The notes beneath the pieces were generated by a model that saw nothing but the letters and a program-made list of their open reading frames with translations, had not been told where the DNA came from and ran no database searches. Source: Trypanosoma brucei (lineage: Eukaryota). Taken from it: DNA of 64,000 nucleotides. Location: assembly GCA_000002445.1 (NCBI GenBank), contig CP000068.1, forward strand, positions 1,056,001-1,120,000. The letters run 5' to 3'. A program made the position numbers and the translations under genes. This document shows positions 16,511 through 50,035 of this stretch, in pieces; the first letter of the stretch is position 1; every line of letters begins with the position of its first letter.

Positions 16511-16520
16511 CCCCCCCCCC
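16511..16520 (-). repeat. C10 on + strand = G10 in transcript sense, in the leader 65 nt upstream of the ATG of gene 16090..16446
   Basis: Read directly. Lies within a 1.7-kb gene-free interval downstream of SERCA. Confidence 0.95.
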
Positions 16521-32199: not shown

Positions 32200-32210
32200 C
32201 CCCCCCCCCC
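32200..32210 (-). repeat. C11 on + strand = G11 in transcript sense, ~90 nt upstream of the eIF2A-like gene ATG
   Basis: Read directly. Confidence 0.95.
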
Positions 32211-40815: not shown

Positions 40816-42576
40816 CTAAACGCAGTCATGTAGGAAATAAACACGCAACTCATCTTCGGTTGCTTCCACCGCCAGAAAGTACAACAGATAGGCCGCATCC
40901 ACAGAAACTTGTCGGGCCATGTTGCCTACGTGCCCTTCAGAGAGGGGTACCATTTCATTCTTCGGTCCGAAAGGGCATAGTAACGCATCCACTGGACAGT
41001 CAAATTCGCCTACGATGCCGTTACAAACAAGCTCTGCCCAACAAATAGCCCTCAACACAGCGGTAGGAACAAGACAAGTGTCTGGGCTAAACTTCCGACA
41101 TACTCGACTTACATATTTCAGTAACGACAGCATTGAGTTGGACGGGGCCCAAACACCAACAGTGCATCCGGGTTCGGTTAGGCGCCGGTGGTCCCAAACT
41201 ACGGTTCCTCGGGTAAGGACCCTACATAATTCATCGGCCGCCTTCACTGCCGTATGTACGTTGCCAGATACATCAAAAGCTTTGTGCCCCGCAACCGCAT
41301 CCTTATACGAGGTAAACAAGGACTCAAGCCACGACGCGCCTTTCTTTGAAGGTGGATAAGAGCCATCCGCTTTAGCCCAAGGTGAAAAACAATGACCGAG
41401 TGCAGTATTCAGACTCGACAGCCATGCGTCGCGTTCAGAGCCCAAATTTCCCACCTCCTCGTGTCGTAGATGCTCCAAAAGAACCTTTCGGAGCAAGCTC
41501 ATGCGACTTCGTATATCATCATTACTCGAAAATTTTGGTAAAAGTGAAGGAGTCGTGATGAAACCGTACCACAGAACAAGCTCCGCATCTGTGTACGAAC
41601 CATATTGCAGAAATACCTGATCTCCCTTCGATACAGGAGCTGTCGTCACAAATATGTACGCGCCCATACATCTGTCAAATCTCATAGTGGCATTATTTGT
41701 TAGTGAATGATTGAAATAATCGACCCATGGAATGACAGCCCAAACCTCAGGATCGTAAGAAAACCCACGGCTCATGAGGGTGTTATAAGCCCAAATAAAC
41801 TGTTGCATTGTAAACGGTGTTGCACACGACATCGTGCAGCCACCAGAAGGTTGCACCAAGGGAAGATGCAGCGAAAGAATTGACATCACGATATTGAACT
41901 CTTTTTCTAGCTGCATCCGTTCTTCCAGCACCTTTCTTCTGTGCCTCTCAAAACACAGAAAGTTACGAAGACACGCACCACCCCCTTCACAGTCATGTGA
42001 CCTTGCGACGCCCACACAAGTACTGTCCAGGTGCGTGTGTTCCAACAACTCAAGGAGGTTATCGTACTTGGTTGGTAGGGACAATAGCCACGTTCTCATC
42101 CAACGGTGTATGAAAAATGGCCCTAAATCTGCATTTCCGCCTCCAGTGGACACGGTAAACATAACTTCAGAGGCACTACCAGCTTTTTTATGGAAAGCAT
42201 TGTTACTAAACCGACCACATTGCCCTGCGGCAACGAGCAAAGAGAAGATAATCATGGAGCCTGGTGATAACATTTGGTCTAAATCCCCTAGGATATCCAC
42301 AGATGTCTCCCTTCTCGACCTCCCATCGAAGGGGGTCCAACCGAGACGCTCTTGCTTCTGCTGAGAAATCCAAAAATTAAGATGATTTCGAGCCTTCTGG
42401 GCGGTAATCATAGATGACTCTGGAATCTTTACTATCACTGTGTTCGACGGCAAATTTTCCGTGGCAATAACGCCGTGTCCACCACCCATTTGGTGGATTG
42501 GCAGTACGCCGATGGAAGGGTGGAAGAAAGCGCCTTCTTCCTGCAACATAAGTTGGATAAGCGACACGCTCTCCAT
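40816..42576 (-). CDS. SET-domain lysine methyltransferase (Rubisco-LSMT/SETD6-like); first gene of the minus-strand polycistronic unit
   Basis: WVDYFNHS...GDQVFLQYGSYTDAELVLWYGF. Track start 42756 is TTG, followed by 60 hydrophobic non-homologous residues. The first ATG at 42576-42574 gives MESVSLIQLML. Confidence 0.6.
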   Translation of the reverse strand: MESVSLIQLMLQEEGAFFHPSIGVLPIHQMGGGHGVIATENLPSNTVIVKIPESSMITAQKARNHLNFWISQQKQERLGWTPFDGRSRRETSVDILGDLDQMLSPGSMIIFSLLVAAGQCGRFSNNAFHKKAGSASEVMFTVSTGGGNADLGPFFIHRWMRTWLLSLPTKYDNLLELLEHTHLDSTCVGVARSHDCEGGGACLRNFLCFERHRRKVLEERMQLEKEFNIVMSILSLHLPLVQPSGGCTMSCATPFTMQQFIWAYNTLMSRGFSYDPEVWAVIPWVDYFNHSLTNNATMRFDRCMGAYIFVTTAPVSKGDQVFLQYGSYTDAELVLWYGFITTPSLLPKFSSNDDIRSRMSLLRKVLLEHLRHEEVGNLGSERDAWLSSLNTALGHCFSPWAKADGSYPPSKKGASWLESLFTSYKDAVAGHKAFDVSGNVHTAVKAADELCRVLTRGTVVWDHRRLTEPGCTVGVWAPSNSMLSLLKYVSRVCRKFSPDTCLVPTAVLRAICWAELVCNGIVGEFDCPVDALLCPFGPKNEMVPLSEGHVGNMARQVSVDAAYLLYFLAVEATEDELRVYFLHDCV

Positions 42577-43802
42577 GTTAACAGGACAAAAAGCTTCTAC
42601 CAATTTTACTACTGATACCAATTTCAGAACATAAAGCACACAATTGAAACTAATGGGGAAATAGAGATAGCTTATTACTCGCACATGGCACGAAACTAGA
42701 ACCAACAGCTGAGGAAGTCTAATGAACCAAACAATAAAATGAAGGTCCGGCAACAAAAAGGAACTTGGAGACCGAATATCGACAACAGATCATGGGGATG
42801 GAGAGGTTTAGCATACGCATGGAGAAAGCAAATACAGTTATCGGTGAGACGACACACAAAAACAAAGAAGCTAATATTACGTGGACGCAGGGCTGAAACA
42901 CCATTCAGAGCTGGTCTATACTGTCACCAACCCGCCAAAGCAGCAGCAAAGCAGTAAATATATACCTACGTACGTATATACTTGAAGATACCTATCTCCA
43001 GAATGGCAAAGACGATCCTCATACCCACATCGCCCCTCTACCGGACACACACACGCACACCCTGGGGTGGCATAAGCACATCTAAAAAGCATACCCAATA
43101 TGACATTTGGTGTTACAATTTTTGGCATGTCACGCGAGTGCACACATGTGCGAAGGTGAAAGCTTGCTTTACCCCCAAGTAAACAGAAGATGGTTGCCCA
43201 CCAAGTAAGCCTGCATACAACCCAGTGAGAGCGCGCAGTGCGCACCTTTGTAACAAAGTTTATTTGCACGATATGCGCAAGTAACAGGAAATTCCTAAAA
43301 ATATGTGGCGTATTTTTTGTAGTCGTATATGTAGGTTGTATCCCATAAAGCTGTCGTCCACCATGTTAATATACAATAGTCAAAAAACAAGAGGTTTCTG
43401 AATAGATGACATGGGATATGGTGTAAGCAAAGTAGTAAAGACGTTGGTACGCACCTAAACTCGCTGATCACGTGGGTAAGGTGAAGCACAAAGGTAAAAA
43501 AAATAACTCTGATCTCCACTTTAGCGACCTTCAGTATTCCCGACAGACCACCAATTACAATGCAGTTGCACTAGAATATCCCATATACACACTATTAAAT
43601 ATACCATCAACGTTTATTCATAATTTACAGTGTGCTGTGCCAAAAAAAAAATTTTGCTTACACTTTGTCGCAAACACATCTCGGTGGCATCACGTGTGCT
43701 AACACGGGGCAAGCAGTACGGTAGTGCAGCAATTTCTTCACCAATCTCTGTACTCGGTAAACTGGTCGAGGTACACCCCAGTCTCTTTTTTTTTACATAA
43801 TA

Positions 43803-43814
43803 GGGGGGGGGGGG
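43803..43814 (+). repeat. G12 homopolymer
   Basis: ggggggggggggg read directly from the sequence. Confidence 0.95.
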
Positions 43815-44224
43815 TAAAGGCTGCCTCAGTGGCGGTGCCACGCGAAAGAGATTGCCGAAGGATATTACCGATGGAATCTCTCCACCAGCGGGAGAATTAC
43901 CTTACAGTTTTCAACTAGAAAGGTGACAATAAAAAAAACGCACCTCGTTCACGATCCAATGAGCTTGTAAGTGTCACCGTAGTGTACATGTAGCGCCACC
44001 GCAACTACCAGCAGATAGACATATACGTGCATAAGTTACCCAACAATGCTACGTCTTCTCACAAGGCGCAGGCTGACCTCCCCCCGTCTATTTACCCAAT
44101 GCGCCAGACTTTTGCAACGCACAATCCCTCCTAGCACACCAGACAGCCCTTAATTCAGTATCAGCAAATTTGGACACGATAGTTCACAACCCCTCTGTCC
44201 TCTCAACCACACTTGTCCGGCTAC

Positions 44225-44294
44225 CGGCACGTGCGCGTCCCATTTTCGTGTACAGCCCCACTTTCCTTCAGCGTAACTGCACGCGCACGTGCCG
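44225..44294. repeat. 14-bp perfect inverted repeat (cggcacgtgcgcgt / acgcgcacgtgccg) with 42-nt spacer; each arm contains a CACGTG palindrome
   Basis: Arm 1 at 44225-44238. Arm 2 at 44281-44294 is its exact reverse complement. Confidence 0.9.
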
Positions 44295-44661
44295 CTCCCA
44301 CAACTAGGCAGATTAAAAGGCGGCTGAAAGACTCCTGGCAGTGAACCCCTACACACGTTGCGCCGCACCTGCTTGTTGGGCTCCCGCTCCTCGGCCCCTG
44401 TAGGACGGTGTGGCCACTGAAGCGTCCTCTGACTTCATTTACCCGGCGGAAGCGTCCTATCGATCATATTCTTTTACCTGTTAGCTCTCTTTCTCGGGCG
44501 CTTCCTCTTGAAATTTAGCCCTCCCCCTCCCCTTAGGGCTCGAGCGTATAGTTCACCGCCCAGAACGCATTGCCACCACGCCCTCCCAGCCTCTCGGCCA
44601 GTTCTTTTTTTTTTTTTTGCGTTGCCCTCTCCGACTCCTCGAAAGGCTTAATGTTTTCGCA

Positions 44662-44672
44662 GTCTCCATTCC
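44662..44672 (-). repeat. C11 on + strand (G11 in minus-unit sense), preceded by T14 at 44605-44618
   Basis: Read directly from the sequence. Confidence 0.95.
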
Positions 44673-46064
44673 CCCCCCCCCCGCTTTCAGGCCAGTGCTC
44701 CCCTAGCTAATTAAAGACGCTGCTTCTCCATACGTGGTGGTATCTTTCAAAGCGGATCTCCCCCACAACAGCCTGTGCACTTGGTATACAAACCCTTTCA
44801 TTGCCACAGTTGGCCCCAACATATTTCCCTTTTTGACGAGTGTAACAGCGCCTCGTAGGAAGGGTATTACCCCTCAAGGTTTTGTAACCACTCTCATTCT
44901 TCATATATCTTGTTTTCCCCCTGCGCAGCCATCTCCTGTAGGGCGTCTCCTCTCCTCGGTTCCCTCTCGTGAGCCGTGTGTGCGTGCGTGCATGTGTAAT
45001 AATGCGTTTTTGCAGCTCTTTAGAGGGGCTGAGAGTTTTAACATGCATCCGAAACGGCCCTCAACACACGCTCTGCGGTAGCACACCCGTTTAGATTTGC
45101 TCCTGCAAGGCAATACCCATCGACGACATTAGAAGTGGAGTCTGTTACCATCCGTGGTGCTGCTGGACTTGAGTTCGACATAATGACGTTTGCGGGTGGC
45201 CCTCCATTTCGGACTCCGTGTCATTGCGACACATCCCTCGCACATTTTCGCACCGTCCTTTGGTGGCCTCCACCGTGCCGAAGACCCTCTTGTGACTCCC
45301 TCCGTTTTAAATATTCTCGAGCTTTCTAGCGAGCACTGCTGTGTGGTACGATCAGCTCTGCAACCGGGCGGTGTGGGTGTATCCGGTTTTCATCTGCACG
45401 AGGAATCTTACACAACTATTTTCATTGTGGCTCCTTTCGATGACGGTATGTTCGACGCCCCCTTTTTTTTAAAATGTTGTGTTACGGATTCATGTCGGTG
45501 CAAATGTGATGTGGATCCTGCACTTAGGGGCGACGATGGTCGGTGGTGTTTGTGGAGCTCCCGTCTATCTGGGTCCCTTCACGGAATCTGTACCGTGTCG
45601 TGTTGAGATGGCCTCGCCGCCCCCTTTTAAGATCGGATAGAGGTAACAAGTGAATTGTCGGGTATTAGGGTTACTCTCTTCTTTTGCGTGGAAGTATATT
45701 CCCCACCCGATGCAGAAGTGACGGTTCTGTTTGCGGAACTGGTTGAATCAAAACATATCTTTGCCGGTCTTGATGGGTGCGGCAGCCTCTTGATATTTTA
45801 TTGTAGCCCGAGTAGAAGTGGAGCCGAGGTCCGCGGTAAGTTGTTGGCCGGTCATTGTTGTAGCGTATGGTGCGCCACGTGATCTATCGTTTTTTATTTC
45901 CCCCTCATTTTCTTCGTAGCCGTCATTTTTCCTTTTTTTAGTATTGTAGAAAAGATGTGTATGGATGGTAAATGACGGATCATTCCCCTCGTTAGAGGAA
46001 GCTACTTTACTAATGCTTTTGTTGCCTTAGTCAAACTGCTTGTCTAATGAAACCGTGCTAAACT

Positions 46065-46091
46065 GTGGTGTGTGTGTGTGGGGGGGGGGGG
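46065..46091 (+). promoter_or_regulatory. (GT)7-8 followed by G11, 345 nt upstream of SMC3 ATG in sense orientation; GT-rich/G-tract promoter-like element
   Basis: tgtggtgtgtgtgtgtgggggggggggg read directly. GT-rich elements and G-runs have been reported at trypanosome Pol II start regions. Confidence 0.5.
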
Positions 46092-46383
46092 AAGGCCGTG
46101 TGCCGCGCCTGCTAGCACACCACAGCAGGTAACCATGCGCGGACGTTGCTTACACCTTGGTAGCTTCACTATCATTTTGCTGCTTAATGGTACCGTTTGT
46201 TAATTACCTTCAAGCAATGAGATAACCTTCTTATTACTGTTTTGTTTAATGTTGTCTTTTGTTCCACATCCTAAGCTTCTACATCAGGAGAGTGGTGTAT
46301 GTTGTTGCGCTGACTTTGTACTTTCCCCCTTAGACTGCACGGTTGCCAACATGAAATAACCTGAACTGATTGTTTAACATTAC

Positions 46384-46418
46384 CGTTTGTTTTGTTTTTT
46401 GACTACCCTCTTTCTTAG
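46384..46418 (+). promoter_or_regulatory. Polypyrimidine tract + AG immediately upstream of SMC3 ATG (candidate trans-splice acceptor)
   Basis: tttgttttgttttttgactaccctctttcttag, with AG at 46417-46418 and the ATG at 46436. Confidence 0.55.
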
Positions 46419-46435
46419 ACCACTTACAGGATACT

Positions 46436-49400
46436 ATGTATATCAAAAATATTCTTATTTCCGGATTCCGCTCGTACCGAGAACAAGCGTTTGAGCAGGA
46501 GCTCTCGCCGAAAAACAACGTGATCGTTGGGAAAAACGGAGCAGGCAAGTCGAATTTCTTCGCTGCGATCCAGTTTGTTCTTTGTGAGAAATTTATGAAC
46601 CTTTCTTCTGTAGAGAGAAAGGATCTGTTCCACGTTGGATCCGGGAGGCCTGCGTTGCCCATCTTTGTGGAAATTATTTTTGATAATTCTGATGGTCGTC
46701 TTGTAATACCGGGAAAATCTGCTGTGAATGAAGTGCGTATACGGCGTACACTGGGCCTTAAGCAAGACGAATTTCGTGTAAATGACAAACGGTTCACGGC
46801 CACTGATATCCGGCAACTGCTGGAAAGCGCTGGGTTCTCGTCAACCAACCCTTACTATATTGTTGAGCAAGGCCAAATTTCAAGTTTGGCAAACATGAGT
46901 GATGAAGAACGGTTCCAACTTATAAAAGATGTGGCAGGTACGAGAGTTTATGAAGTAAGGCGAAAGGAGAGCGAGAAGATTTTGGAAGAAACGGAGGTGC
47001 AGCACGAGAAAATCGGGGAGTCTATTGCTCAACTCGAGGAGCGTCTTGAAGAGCTTCGGTCTGAGTCTGATGAACTCATGTCGTTCCAAGAGATTGACAA
47101 AAAAAGAAAGTGTGTTCAGTACTGTATCCTTAACTCAGACCTGAACGCTGCAAGAGAAGAACTTCGGAGGCTGGATGATGAGAGGAACTCTTACATGTCC
47201 CGCAGCGGAAGGGATCATTACGATATTGATGAAGCGAAAGCCATCATCAGTGAAGCTGAATCGGAGATACGTAATTGCGATCAGCGTATCTTGAGGTTGG
47301 AGGGGGAGCTACAGGACCTGGATACGAAAAGGGGCACATTGATGCGTGAAAAAGAGATTGTGCAATTAAATTGTATGTCATCTCTCAACACGATGAAAAG
47401 AACAGAGAGTGTGAAAACGAACGTTCTGAAGAGGGTTGGAGAACTGAACAAACAGATAGCAGAGACGAATGCTGGCTTGAAGAAGAAGCTTGCTATCATA
47501 CAACAGGAGCAGCTTACTGTTGATCAGAAAAGTGAGGAACTGTCCGCCATAGAAGGAAAACTTAAGGCACTTGAAGCGAGACGGGCTCGTCAATTGCTTT
47601 TCAAGAACAAGCAAGAGCGGGACAACTGGCTTGCTGAAGAGTCTAATAGAAACAGAAAAACCATAGAGAATTATAAACATGAATTAAAGTTTACGTGTAG
47701 TGAGATACAGAAAGTTGAAAAGCAAATTGAGGATGAGGAAACTGAACAGAAAAATTGGGAGGAATCATTAAAGAAATCAGATTCAGTTATAACGGAGCTT
47801 AAATCAAAGTACGAAGAGACGATGGCCTTCAGGAATTCACTGAGCGTTAAAAAGGGTGACCTCTGGAGAGAACAGTCTGCCCTTGTACAGACGGTTCGGA
47901 CACTACGCGAGAATCACAACAAAGCCCGCAGTCAACTCGAAAAAGTAATTCGCTCAGATGTTCGTCAAGGGTTGCAGTCTCTTAAAGAGGTTCTGGACGA
48001 GCTGGCCGACCCATCGCTAACAAATGCTGTACATGGCCAATTAATTGAGCTCATCGGCGTCTCGAACGGCTACGAGACAGCTGTTGAAGTGACAGCTGGT
48101 AATTCACTCTTTAACGTTGTTGTTGATTCATTCGAAGTTAGTGCGATTTTGCTGGAGAATATGAACAGCAGGAAGAAACCTGGACGTATATCATTTTTCC
48201 CAATGGATACGTGTAGGGGCACGGTGACACGGTTCGGTGAAGGTGTCGAGTGTAGCAGCTTGGCAGACCATATAATTTGTGATCCGAAGTTTGCTGGCAT
48301 TGTTGCCGAACTATTTGGAAATACTGCTGTTGTGACCTCCATTGCAGATGGTGAAAATGTTTCAAAAAAGTACGCATGTGACGCGGTAACGTTGGATGGG
48401 GATCAAGTCAGCCGGAGAGGTGGTATAACAGGTGGTTATATCGAATCTCGGAGTTTGAAACTCTCTGCTTTCAAGTATGAAAAGGTTGCTGCTGCAGATT
48501 TTTTAAGAGGAGATGAGGCCCTGAAGAAGATTACTCAGGAGTTGGACAACGTTAACCAGGCCTTAACAGGTGTTGTGACCACCCTTAGCTCGCTCAAGAC
48601 GGAGATGTCCTCCATAACGAAATCTAAAGACGGCTCACAAGTTGTCGAACAACATGCACAAAGAAAAGCAGCACTGGATAGGCAGAAGGATAAGTTATAC
48701 GCATCAAAGAAGCAGTTGGAGGACATGATAAATACTGCCCAAGTAAACATAGCCACCTACCAGCATGAGGGAAAAGAAGCGTTCAAATCGGCATGGAGCG
48801 AAGGTGAACAACGAGAGTTGGAGGCGCTGGTGAAAGATGTCGACGACCGCCGCATGAAACTCTCAAAACTTCAGCGGCGGAGTGCACAGTTGGCTGCGGA
48901 AGTGAGGGCCTTGGAGGATATGCGGCTTAACTTAAACGTCCAACTCACGGCTACTAAAAAGTTCTTTCACGATTCCGCTCAACTCAGTGCAAGTAATACC
49001 GCTATTACTAATGAAAAAGAAAATCTTGACGATGATATTTCTTTTAACTCGCAGCAAGCCAACGAAGTCTACAGGTTATTGGATGAGACCAGGAAAGAGA
49101 AACTTCGCAGGGAGGAAGAAGTCGAGAAGCTTAGGAGTGGCTACCTTGAGGCTCTGAATTCTATTCAGGAAAGAAGAGATTTCGACGGAAGGACTCTAAT
49201 GCAGCAGGCACATTGCATTAGACGTCGTGATGGCGCGGCGGAGAAGATAAGGCAACTGGGCGTAATACCCAAGGAAGCTGAGACATATTCTGGGTTGTCC
49301 AGAGAAAAACTAATACAAACACTCAAAGAGTGCAATAAAGCTGCTGAGAAATATGCACATATAAACCGAAAGGCAGTTGATCAGTACAATACATTAATGG

Positions 49401-50035
49401 AAACGAAAAACGGTCTTGTCGCCCAGAAAGAGGATCTTCAGAATGAACTGAAGAGTATTCGTGACTTAATGGACCACCTCGACTGCAAAAAGGATGAAGC
49501 AGTTGAGCGGACATACAAGCAAATTCAGTTGCACTTTGAGCAAGTTTTCAAAGAGTTAGTTACGACCGATGACTGTTACGGTAAACTTCAACTCATCATG
49601 TCAAACACCAGAAAAGAGGCAGGTGAGGATCCGTATGTTGCTGTTCAGATAAAAGTTTCTTTCGGACTAGGAGCTGCCGTCACTGACCTGAAACAACTGA
49701 GTGGTGGACAAAAATCACTTGTGGCGCTGGCGTTGATTTTTGCTATTCAGCGCTGTGATCCTGCACCATTTTATCTTTTCGATGAAATCGATGCTGCCCT
49801 CGATACTGAGTATCGGGCGTCTGTAGCGAAGCTTCTTTCTAAAGAATCAGGGTCGTGCCAATTTATTACAGCAACATTCAAAAACGAAATGCTTGACGTG
49901 GCCGATCACGTGCTCGGTGTTTTCTTTCACAACAAAATAAGTCGTATTCAAGCAATTACGGTTGAAGAAGGTAACAAGCTTTTGAAACAAGCAGTTGTTG
50001 AGGAAAGAAAAAGAGTCCGTGAGCATGTTGAATGA
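46436..50035 (+). CDS. SMC3: Structural maintenance of chromosomes protein 3 (cohesin SMC3); first gene of the plus-strand polycistronic unit
   Basis: MYIKNILISGFRSYREQ..GKNGAGKSNFFAAIQFVL (Walker A), hinge, and the signature LSGGQKSLVALALIFAIQRCDPAPFYLFDEIDAALD. 1199 aa. ATG verified at 46436. polyY+AG lies 10-50 nt upstream. Confidence 0.9.
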   Translation: MYIKNILISGFRSYREQAFEQELSPKNNVIVGKNGAGKSNFFAAIQFVLCEKFMNLSSVERKDLFHVGSGRPALPIFVEIIFDNSDGRLVIPGKSAVNEVRIRRTLGLKQDEFRVNDKRFTATDIRQLLESAGFSSTNPYYIVEQGQISSLANMSDEERFQLIKDVAGTRVYEVRRKESEKILEETEVQHEKIGESIAQLEERLEELRSESDELMSFQEIDKKRKCVQYCILNSDLNAAREELRRLDDERNSYMSRSGRDHYDIDEAKAIISEAESEIRNCDQRILRLEGELQDLDTKRGTLMREKEIVQLNCMSSLNTMKRTESVKTNVLKRVGELNKQIAETNAGLKKKLAIIQQEQLTVDQKSEELSAIEGKLKALEARRARQLLFKNKQERDNWLAEESNRNRKTIENYKHELKFTCSEIQKVEKQIEDEETEQKNWEESLKKSDSVITELKSKYEETMAFRNSLSVKKGDLWREQSALVQTVRTLRENHNKARSQLEKVIRSDVRQGLQSLKEVLDELADPSLTNAVHGQLIELIGVSNGYETAVEVTAGNSLFNVVVDSFEVSAILLENMNSRKKPGRISFFPMDTCRGTVTRFGEGVECSSLADHIICDPKFAGIVAELFGNTAVVTSIADGENVSKKYACDAVTLDGDQVSRRGGITGGYIESRSLKLSAFKYEKVAAADFLRGDEALKKITQELDNVNQALTGVVTTLSSLKTEMSSITKSKDGSQVVEQHAQRKAALDRQKDKLYASKKQLEDMINTAQVNIATYQHEGKEAFKSAWSEGEQRELEALVKDVDDRRMKLSKLQRRSAQLAAEVRALEDMRLNLNVQLTATKKFFHDSAQLSASNTAITNEKENLDDDISFNSQQANEVYRLLDETRKEKLRREEEVEKLRSGYLEALNSIQERRDFDGRTLMQQAHCIRRRDGAAEKIRQLGVIPKEAETYSGLSREKLIQTLKECNKAAEKYAHINRKAVDQYNTLMETKNGLVAQKEDLQNELKSIRDLMDHLDCKKDEAVERTYKQIQLHFEQVFKELVTTDDCYGKLQLIMSNTRKEAGEDPYVAVQIKVSFGLGAAVTDLKQLSGGQKSLVALALIFAIQRCDPAPFYLFDEIDAALDTEYRASVAKLLSKESGSCQFITATFKNEMLDVADHVLGVFFHNKISRIQAITVEEGNKLLKQAVVEERKRVREHVE

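What the first reader, a model, noticed from the sequence alone, without database searches (positions are those of the whole stretch)
46065..46091. (GT)nG11 element in sense orientation 345 nt upstream of the first plus-unit gene
This is a compact GT-dinucleotide run fused to an 11-G tract. GT-rich promoters and G-runs were reported to drive Pol II initiation and H2A.Z deposition in African trypanosomes. Orientation and position fit a start-site proximal element for the SMC3-led unit.
Basis: partly seen in the sequence, partly recalled or inferred. Interest (0 to 1): 0.5.

Follow-up and report, generated by a model that had tools for sequence, protein, structure and literature searches.

The report
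Known-type GT/G-run element in trypanosome start region
The GT-repeat plus 12-G tract is real and is a textbook example of the strand-biased "GT-rich/G-run" sequences already described at Trypanosoma brucei RNA polymerase II start regions, but it lies inside an already-spliced upstream transcript, so it is not the start-site element of an SMC3-led unit.

Summary
The window is T. brucei TREU927 chromosome 5 (window coordinate = chr5 v4 coordinate minus 1,056,000). The element is real: GTG(GT)6 at 46065-46079 fused to G12, not G11, at 46080-46091. It is on the sense strand, 345 nt before the SMC3 (Tb927.5.3510) ATG, and far beyond chance.

Nine of its eighteen 10-mers are in the published list of 10-mers enriched on the coding strand at T. 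brucei start regions (Wedel 2017), including ranks 1, 2 and 4. So it belongs, by sequence and strand, to a known class.

The positional reading fails. Kolev 2010 maps a trans-spliced, polyadenylated plus-strand transcript, Tb5.NT.79, at window 44929-46315, and the element lies inside it. It is 1,136 nt after the spliced-leader acceptor and 224 nt before the poly(A) site. Plus-strand transcription therefore starts more than 1.1 kb upstream, and SMC3 is not the first processed transcript.

Coding-strand G runs also occur inside the neighbouring unit, one of them in a 5'UTR. The element is absent from T. cruzi, T. melophagium and T. vivax, and its G-run length varies among T. brucei-group genomes.

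The likeliest role is one redundant module of a dispersed GT-rich start region, or neutral slippage DNA. Low novelty.

The parts
46065..46079 (+). GTG(GT)6 dinucleotide repeat, the 5' half of the element
   Evidence: identical in T. b. gambiense and T. equiperdum
46080..46091 (+). G12 homopolymer, the 3' half of the element; G14 in T. b. gambiense, G10-C-G7 in T. equiperdum
   Evidence: highest G4Hunter score in the window, 2.28
45300..46100 (+). About 800-bp block with roughly 60% G+T on the + strand; the element sits at its 3' end
   Evidence: 300-nt windows; comparable blocks upstream of SMC3 in T. cruzi and T. melophagium
44929..46315 (+). Tb5.NT.79, a trans-spliced and polyadenylated novel transcript (1,386 nt, 0.69 RNA/cell) that contains the element
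   Evidence: Kolev 2010 Tables S7 and S12 and text; AG at 44927-44928 preceded by a pyrimidine tract; no Pfam match for its ORFs
46419..50035 (+). SMC3 (Tb927.5.3510) mRNA from its major spliced-leader acceptor (46419; 17-nt 5'UTR) to the stop codon; CDS 46436-50035
   Evidence: AG at 46417-46418
43803..43814 (+). Second G12 on the + strand, in the gap between the two first acceptor sites, 1.1 kb upstream of the Tb5.NT.79 acceptor
44671..44682 (-). G12 on the minus strand (C12 on +), 258 nt upstream of the Tb5.NT.79 acceptor
42767..43397 (-). Tb5.NT.76, the first processed minus-strand transcript, upstream of SET16 (Tb927.5.3500)
   Evidence: CT at 43398-43399 and 43351-43352 = AG on the minus strand
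43030..43054 (-). Mirror-image (GT)5 + G-rich stretch on the minus strand (GTGTGTGTGTCCGGTAGAGGGGCGA), about 455-480 nt upstream of the SET16 ATG, inside Tb5.NT.76
   Evidence: inverted-repeat pairs I1 and I2 with the element
40816..42576 (-). SET16 (Tb927.5.3500), first annotated ORF of the divergent minus unit

Best explanation
The element is a compound microsatellite, (GT)6-G12, on the coding (non-template) strand in the 5' part of the plus-strand Pol II start region of the SET16/SMC3 divergent strand-switch region on T. brucei chromosome 5. It is an instance of the known coding-strand G-run / GT-rich sequences that mark T. brucei start regions. Shown: its sequence, strand, class match and position relative to mapped RNA processing sites. 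It lies downstream of the primary start region and is transcribed as part of the leader transcript Tb5.NT.79. Inferred: it acts, if at all, as one of several redundant, orientation-dependent GT-rich modules. The roughly 800-bp GT-rich block at 45300-46100 is the larger unit. Together these modules would favour H2A.Z-containing chromatin and low-level dispersed initiation ahead of the first protein-coding gene. It is not a focused promoter or the determinant of the start site.
For: The organism and locus are identified. The coordinate map to chr5 v4 is validated at five splice acceptors and two poly(A) sites. The divergent Pol II units are supported by 5'-triphosphate RNA-seq. Nine of the element's eighteen 10-mers are in Wedel's EV1 list, and the bin 46001-46500 has 15 + strand hits, the maximum in the 64-kb window. 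Synthetic promoters made of such 10-mers are directional and recruit H2A.Z, and every fragment of the start regions tested had activity, which indicates a dispersed promoter. The element lies inside Tb5.NT.79. A coding-strand GT-rich block upstream of SMC3 recurs in T. cruzi and T. melophagium.
Against: There is no functional or chromatin data for this position. G runs of 6 or more are coding-strand biased throughout the units (14 vs 4), so the bias is not specific to start regions. G11 at 32200-32210 lies in the 5'UTR of Tb927.5.3450, and G10 at 16511-16520 lies just upstream of Tb927.5.3390, where no start site is listed. A second-hand report says Cordon-Obras 2022 found poly-GTGT outside the essential 75-bp core promoter. 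In L. major, G tracts are judged insufficient for initiation. The element is not conserved outside the T. brucei group, and its length varies within the group.
Confidence: 0.55

Rival explanations
1. It is neutral slippage DNA. The compound (GT)n/(G)n microsatellite arose and drifts in non-coding transcribed sequence. Its strand orientation simply reflects the general G>C and T>A coding-strand mutational skew of trypanosome transcription units, and it has no role of its own.
For: The G-run length differs among close relatives (12, 14, 10+C+7) while 100 nt of flank on each side are identical. The element is absent at the orthologous site in T. cruzi, T. melophagium and T. vivax. The coding-strand bias of G runs holds across the whole window. 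Similar runs occur at non-start sites. The surrounding sequence may be a decayed gene.
Against: All three 12-mers of the window fall within the 3.7-kb strand-switch region. Genome-wide, G10 is 8-fold coding-biased specifically in the first fifth of start regions: 132 there against 7-27 in the later fifths.
Confidence: 0.3
2. One reading: a start-site-proximal promoter element from which the SMC3-led unit is initiated.
For: Class, orientation and proximity to SMC3 fit. SMC3 mRNA (5.77/cell) is about 8-fold more abundant than Tb5.NT.79 (0.69/cell), which extra initiation downstream of 44929 could explain.
Against: The element is inside a spliced, polyadenylated upstream transcript. The abundance difference is equally explained by RNA stability. 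Poly-GTGT was reportedly dispensable in the one promoter that has been dissected.
Confidence: 0.1
3. It is a non-B DNA or RNA element. G12 on the non-template strand, abutting a Z-DNA-prone (GT)n, would promote G-quadruplex or R-loop formation when transcribed. That would slow Pol II about 220 nt before the Tb5.NT.79 poly(A) site and 330 nt before the SMC3 acceptor, aiding coupled polyadenylation/trans-splicing or local nucleosome depletion.
For: It has the highest G4Hunter score in the window, 2.28. G4 ChIP-seq reports enrichment at T. brucei start sites (abstract only).
Against: A single G12 does not satisfy the canonical four-tract G3+ motif. The RNA fold of the region is no better than shuffles (z = -0.36). 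No locus-specific G4 or R-loop data could be obtained.
Confidence: 0.05

Closest known systems
GT-rich promoter elements of T. brucei Pol II transcription start regions (Wedel et al. 2017, EMBO J, PMC5579346)
   Same: Same organism, coding strand and 10-mers. The (GT)n-to-G junction 10-mers and G10 top their Dataset EV1. Their synthetic GT_210_nt promoter contains the near-identical stretch CGGTGGTGTGTGTGTGGAGGG.
   Different: Activity was shown for 210-416-nt synthetic concatemers and 1.8-kb fragments, not for a single 27-nt element. Here the element lies inside a processed transcript. H2A.Z occupancy and activity at this site are untested.
G tracts at Leishmania major strand-switch regions (chr1 73-bp region; Thomas et al. 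2009, PMC2679053)
   Same: A homopolymeric G/C tract of 10 nt or more was the only motif recovered at divergent start regions. L. major has a G10 preceded by GT-rich sequence 2.8 kb upstream of its SMC3.
   Different: The authors found such tracts peppered through the genome, absent from about half the start sites, and unlikely to be sufficient. There is no GT repeat component.
Sequence-specific 75-bp core promoters of T. brucei units (Cordon-Obras et al. 2022, Cell Rep 38:110221; seen only through citing papers)
   Same: [quoted passage not shown]
   Different: [quoted passage not shown] The motifs could not be obtained, so they were not tested here.
Dispersed (CpG-island-like) promoters and nucleosome-disfavouring homopolymer tracts of other eukaryotes (own knowledge)
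   Same: Low-complexity, strand-asymmetric sequence associated with broad initiation zones and H2A.Z-type chromatin.
   Different: In T. brucei, nucleosome-depleted regions track splice sites rather than start sites, and initiation has a 4:1 strand bias.

Membership tests
T. brucei start-region GT-rich / G-run coding-strand elements (Wedel 2017) | Made of 10-mers at least 6-fold enriched on the coding strand of start regions | tested here: met
   Nine of the eighteen 10-mers in 46065-46091 are in Dataset EV1, including ranks 1, 2 and 4
T. brucei start-region GT-rich / G-run coding-strand elements (Wedel 2017) | On the coding strand of the downstream unit | tested here: met
   The + strand is the strand of Tb5.NT.79 and SMC3
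T. brucei start-region GT-rich / G-run coding-strand elements (Wedel 2017) | Lies in an H2A.Z-marked start region, mainly its 5' fifth | not testable with these tools
   The locus is a 5'-PPP-supported divergent start region and the element is 1.1-2.3 kb from the centre, but no H2A.Z profile or start-region coordinates were obtainable
T. brucei start-region GT-rich / G-run coding-strand elements (Wedel 2017) | Drives orientation-dependent transcription and H2A.Z deposition | not testable with these tools
   Needs a reporter or deletion experiment
Start-site-proximal / core promoter of the unit | Lies at or upstream of the 5' ends of the unit's primary transcripts | tested here: not met
   The element is 1,136 nt downstream of the spliced-leader acceptor of Tb5.NT.79
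Cordon-Obras 75-bp sequence-specific core promoter | [quoted passage not shown] | not tested
   The paper is not held. The second-hand description places poly-GTGT outside the core. The element ends 328 nt before the SMC3 acceptor.
Canonical intramolecular G-quadruplex motif | Four G tracts of 3 or more separated by 1-7-nt loops | tested here: inconclusive
   A single G12 cannot give four G3 tracts with loops (15 nt needed), although G4Hunter gives 2.28. The T. equiperdum allele G10CG7 would satisfy the motif.

The most novel reading that the evidence does not exclude
The (GT)6-G12 composite might be a discrete secondary initiation and H2A.Z-nucleation module. It would work through non-B DNA on the non-template strand: a Z-DNA-prone GT repeat abutting a G4/R-loop-prone G tract. 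It would be placed about 330 nt before the first protein-coding gene's splice site so that SMC3 and downstream genes are transcribed more than the upstream leader. This would explain the roughly 8-fold excess of SMC3 mRNA over Tb5.NT.79. The junction 10-mer counts in Wedel's Dataset EV1 suggest similar (GT)n-G junctions at about 6-18 of 199 start regions.
Probability: 0.1. Interest if true: 0.5.

Novelty: already known. Interest (0 to 1): 0.15.

Why it matters
How RNA polymerase II chooses where to start in trypanosomes, which lack conventional promoters, is still only partly understood. This locus adds no new principle: it re-finds the published GT-rich/G-run signature in the reference genome. 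One point is modestly useful. The strongest such element of this strand-switch region lies within the transcribed leader, more than 1 kb downstream of the first splice acceptor. This fits the view that these sequences shape chromatin over a broad start region rather than position a start site. The locus would be a clean place to test single-element necessity, because all RNA processing sites around it are already mapped.

Tried and rejected
- An exact look-up of the window's SMC3 protein found no contig. Orthologous loci were reached through T. b. gambiense, T. equiperdum, T. vivax, T. cruzi, T. melophagium and L. major proteins instead.
- There are no tRNA genes or Rfam families in the window. 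The only weak hit in the strand-switch region is SCARNA7, at 19.7 bits against a threshold of 65.
- Tandem Repeats Finder does not report the element, because its score falls below the threshold.
- The RNA fold of 46040-46140 is no better than shuffles (z = -0.36), so the local hairpin idea was dropped.
- ORFs inside Tb5.NT.79, Tb5.NT.76 and the gambiense-annotated 113-aa ORF have no Pfam family above threshold.
- Cordon-Obras 2022 and Siegel 2009 are not held.
- The G4 ChIP-seq paper has no held supplement. The Staneva 2021 and Tiengwe 2012 supplements hold no start-region or origin coordinates for this locus. Wedel's Dataset EV2 lists libraries only.
- The missing IDs Tb5.NT.77 and Tb5.NT.78 were considered as possible SL-less start-site transcripts. 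This was rejected because ID gaps are common throughout Table S7.
- The long-range inverted matches between 43030-43433 and 46068-46405 are not collinear, so no large palindrome is inferred.

Full report
**Identity of the window**

The 1,199-aa ORF at 46436-50035 is 100% identical to SMC3 of Trypanosoma brucei brucei TREU927 (XP_845021.1), on a 1,608,198-bp record that I take to be chromosome 5. Minus-strand ORFs run up to 42756 and plus-strand ORFs begin at 46436, so the finding lies in a divergent strand-switch region. The left neighbour is SET16 (Tb927.5.3500) and SMC3 is Tb927.5.3510.

**The observation**

- The sequence at 46065-46091 is GTGGTGTGTGTGTGT followed by twelve Gs, not eleven.
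- G10 matches the window 12 times, against 0.07 expected from dinucleotide shuffles.
- The (GT)4G6 junction occurs only at this site.
- Only six G/C homopolymers of 7 or more exist in 64 kb. The three 12-mers all lie in the 3.7-kb strand-switch region: G12 at 43803, C12 at 44671 and G12 at 46080.

**Coordinate map and transcripts**

The supplementary tables of Kolev et al. 2010 (PMC2936537) give processing sites in chr5 v4 coordinates. The major SMC3 spliced-leader acceptor is at 1,102,419 with a 17-nt 5'UTR. This puts the ATG at 1,102,436, which is window 46436, an offset of exactly 1,056,000.

I checked the offset at further sites:

- AG|A at 46417-46419.
- AG|C at 44927-44929, with a pyrimidine tract before it.
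- CT (AG on the minus strand) at 43398-43399 and at 43351-43352.
- AG|T on the minus strand at 32399-32397, for Tb927.5.3450.
- The SMC3 poly(A) site, 162 nt after the stop codon.

All of them fit.

Table S14 lists Tb927.5.3500-to-3100 (minus) and Tb927.5.3510-to-3990 (plus) as 'Divergent' Pol II units, supported by 5'-triphosphate reads. Table S7 lists two 'novel transcripts' in the strand-switch region:

| Transcript | Window coordinates | Strand | Length | Abundance |
|---|---|---|---|---|
| Tb5.NT.76 | 43397 to 42767 | minus | 630 nt | 1.06 RNAs/cell |
| Tb5.NT.79 | 44929 to 46315 | plus | 1,386 nt | 0.69 RNAs/cell |

The paper states that these novel transcripts are trans-spliced and polyadenylated.

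The element therefore lies inside Tb5.NT.79. It is 1,136 nt downstream of that transcript's acceptor and 224 nt upstream of its poly(A) site. Plus-strand primary transcripts must start to the left of 44929. The ORFs inside Tb5.NT.79 match no Pfam family, so it looks like a processed leader or a non-coding RNA.

**Class assignment**

Wedel et al. 2017 (PMC5579346) made four relevant points:

- Initiation occurs at the 5' end of H2A.Z regions with a 4:1 strand bias.
- Every fragment of the two start regions they tested had promoter activity.
- The most strand-biased 10-mers at the 5' fifth of start regions are G and T rich.
- Synthetic 210- and 416-nt concatemers of these 10-mers drive orientation-dependent transcription and recruit H2A.Z.

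Their Dataset EV1 is headed by GGGGGGGGGG (132 coding vs 17 non-coding in region 1), GTGTGTGTGG (18/1) and GGTGTGTGTG (15/0). It also contains TGTGTGTGGG, GTGTGTGGGG, TGTGTGGGGG and TGGTGTGTGT.

Nine of the eighteen 10-mers of the element are in this list. The 500-bp bin 46001-46500 has 15 plus-strand hits, the highest density in the 64-kb window. The element closes an 800-bp block (45300-46100) with about 60% G+T on the plus strand. A mirror-image block and a (GT)5 + G-rich stretch sit on the minus strand at 42500-43100, upstream of SET16 and inside Tb5.NT.76.

By sequence and strand, the element is a textbook member of the published class.

**Limits on a functional reading**

- G runs of 6 or more are coding-strand biased across the whole window (14 vs 4).
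- G11 at 32200-32210 lies in the 5'UTR of Tb927.5.3450. G10 at 16511-16520 lies about 70 nt before the Tb927.5.3390 ATG. No start site is listed at either place.
[quoted passage not shown] I could not read the original paper.

**Comparative evidence**

The SET16/SMC3 divergent arrangement is conserved in T. b. gambiense, T. equiperdum, T. cruzi and T. melophagium. In L. major, SMC3 is the first gene at a chromosome end.

Within the T. brucei group, the flanks are identical and only the G run varies: 12, 14, and 10+C+7. Some of this variation could be homopolymer sequencing error. The T. equiperdum assembly has a gap next to the C12 run.

T. cruzi, T. melophagium and the 821 bp available for T. 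vivax have no long G run or GT repeat near SMC3. T. cruzi and T. melophagium do keep a roughly 60% G+T block on the coding strand 200-700 nt upstream of SMC3. A T. cruzi preprint reports poly-T/poly-A rather than GT motifs at core strand-switch regions. So the compositional feature is conserved, but the element itself is not.

**Structure**

The element has the top G4Hunter score in the window (2.28), followed by the two other G12 runs. A single G12 is not a canonical four-tract motif, however. The RNA fold of the region is no better than shuffles.

**Conclusion**

It is not a start-site-proximal element of an SMC3-led unit. It is most likely one redundant piece of a dispersed GT-rich start region that lies in the transcribed leader (confidence about 0.55). 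Neutral slippage DNA is the main rival (about 0.3). This is a re-finding of a published phenomenon in the reference genome, so novelty and interest are low.

Noticed in passing
window 44225-44238 and 44281-44294: A perfect 14-bp GC-rich inverted repeat (CGGCACGTGCGCGT / ACGCGCACGTGCCG, 42-nt spacer, each arm holding CACGTG) lies in the gap between the two first splice acceptors, where the + strand T/A skew changes sign. As a DNA hairpin it gives -20.6 kcal/mol, z = -4.39, with 0 of 200 shuffles as good. It is the only non-AT perfect inverted repeat of 12 or more within 150 nt in the whole 64-kb window. It could mark the true centre of the bidirectional start region.
   Followed up: partly
window 45832-46002, minus strand; L004 7309-7908 (-); L005 6611-7165 (-): T. 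cruzi, T. melophagium, T. conorhini, T. rangeli and T. grayi have a conserved hypothetical gene (170-200 aa) on the minus strand between SET16 and SMC3. T. brucei has no annotated homologue. A family HMM gives a weak two-segment collinear hit (11.8 bits, E = 0.0012; 0 of 300 shuffles reach it, best shuffle 11.7) just left of the element, antisense to Tb5.NT.79. This is possibly a decayed relic, implying that the T. brucei strand-switch region was remodelled.
   Followed up: partly
window 43803-43821, 44659-44682, 46080-46096: All three G12 runs are followed on their own strand by (T)AA(A/T)GG: G12-TAAAGGC, G12-AATGGAG and G12-AAGGCC. The two core runs are each preceded on the + strand by CCAGT(C)TC-T9/T16 (43778-43794 and 44598-44620). 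Three instances only, so this may be chance. By the skew boundary near 44200, the two core runs sit on the non-coding strand of their own side, or else the two start regions interdigitate by about 870 bp.
   Followed up: partly
window 46181-46201, 46243-46263, 46371-46391: There are three degenerate copies (76-81% identical to the first) of a 21-nt GT-rich motif, TGYTTAAYRTTRYCKTTTGTT, between the element and the SMC3 splice acceptor, spaced 62 and 128 nt apart. The third copy is part of the SMC3 pyrimidine tract.
   Followed up: no
window 43377-43390 and 46392-46405: A perfect 14-nt inverted match places TTGTTTTTTGACTA on each coding strand, just upstream of the Tb5.NT.76 acceptor (43350) and of the SMC3 acceptor (46419). 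The same pyrimidine-tract sequence is therefore used on both sides of the strand-switch region.
   Followed up: no
window 32200-32210 and 16511-16520: Two coding-strand G runs lie inside the minus unit. G11 lies within the 288-nt 5'UTR of Tb927.5.3450, about 90 nt before the ATG. G10 lies about 70 nt before the ATG of the small gene Tb927.5.3390. A sense G run shortly upstream of an ATG is therefore not specific to start regions.
   Followed up: partly
L001 8272-8613 (-) = window 44707-45048 (-): The T. b. gambiense annotation calls a 113-aa hypothetical gene here. It overlaps, on the opposite strand, the spliced-leader acceptor of Tb5.NT.79, and it has no Pfam family above threshold. It is probably a spurious gene call.
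   Followed up: partly
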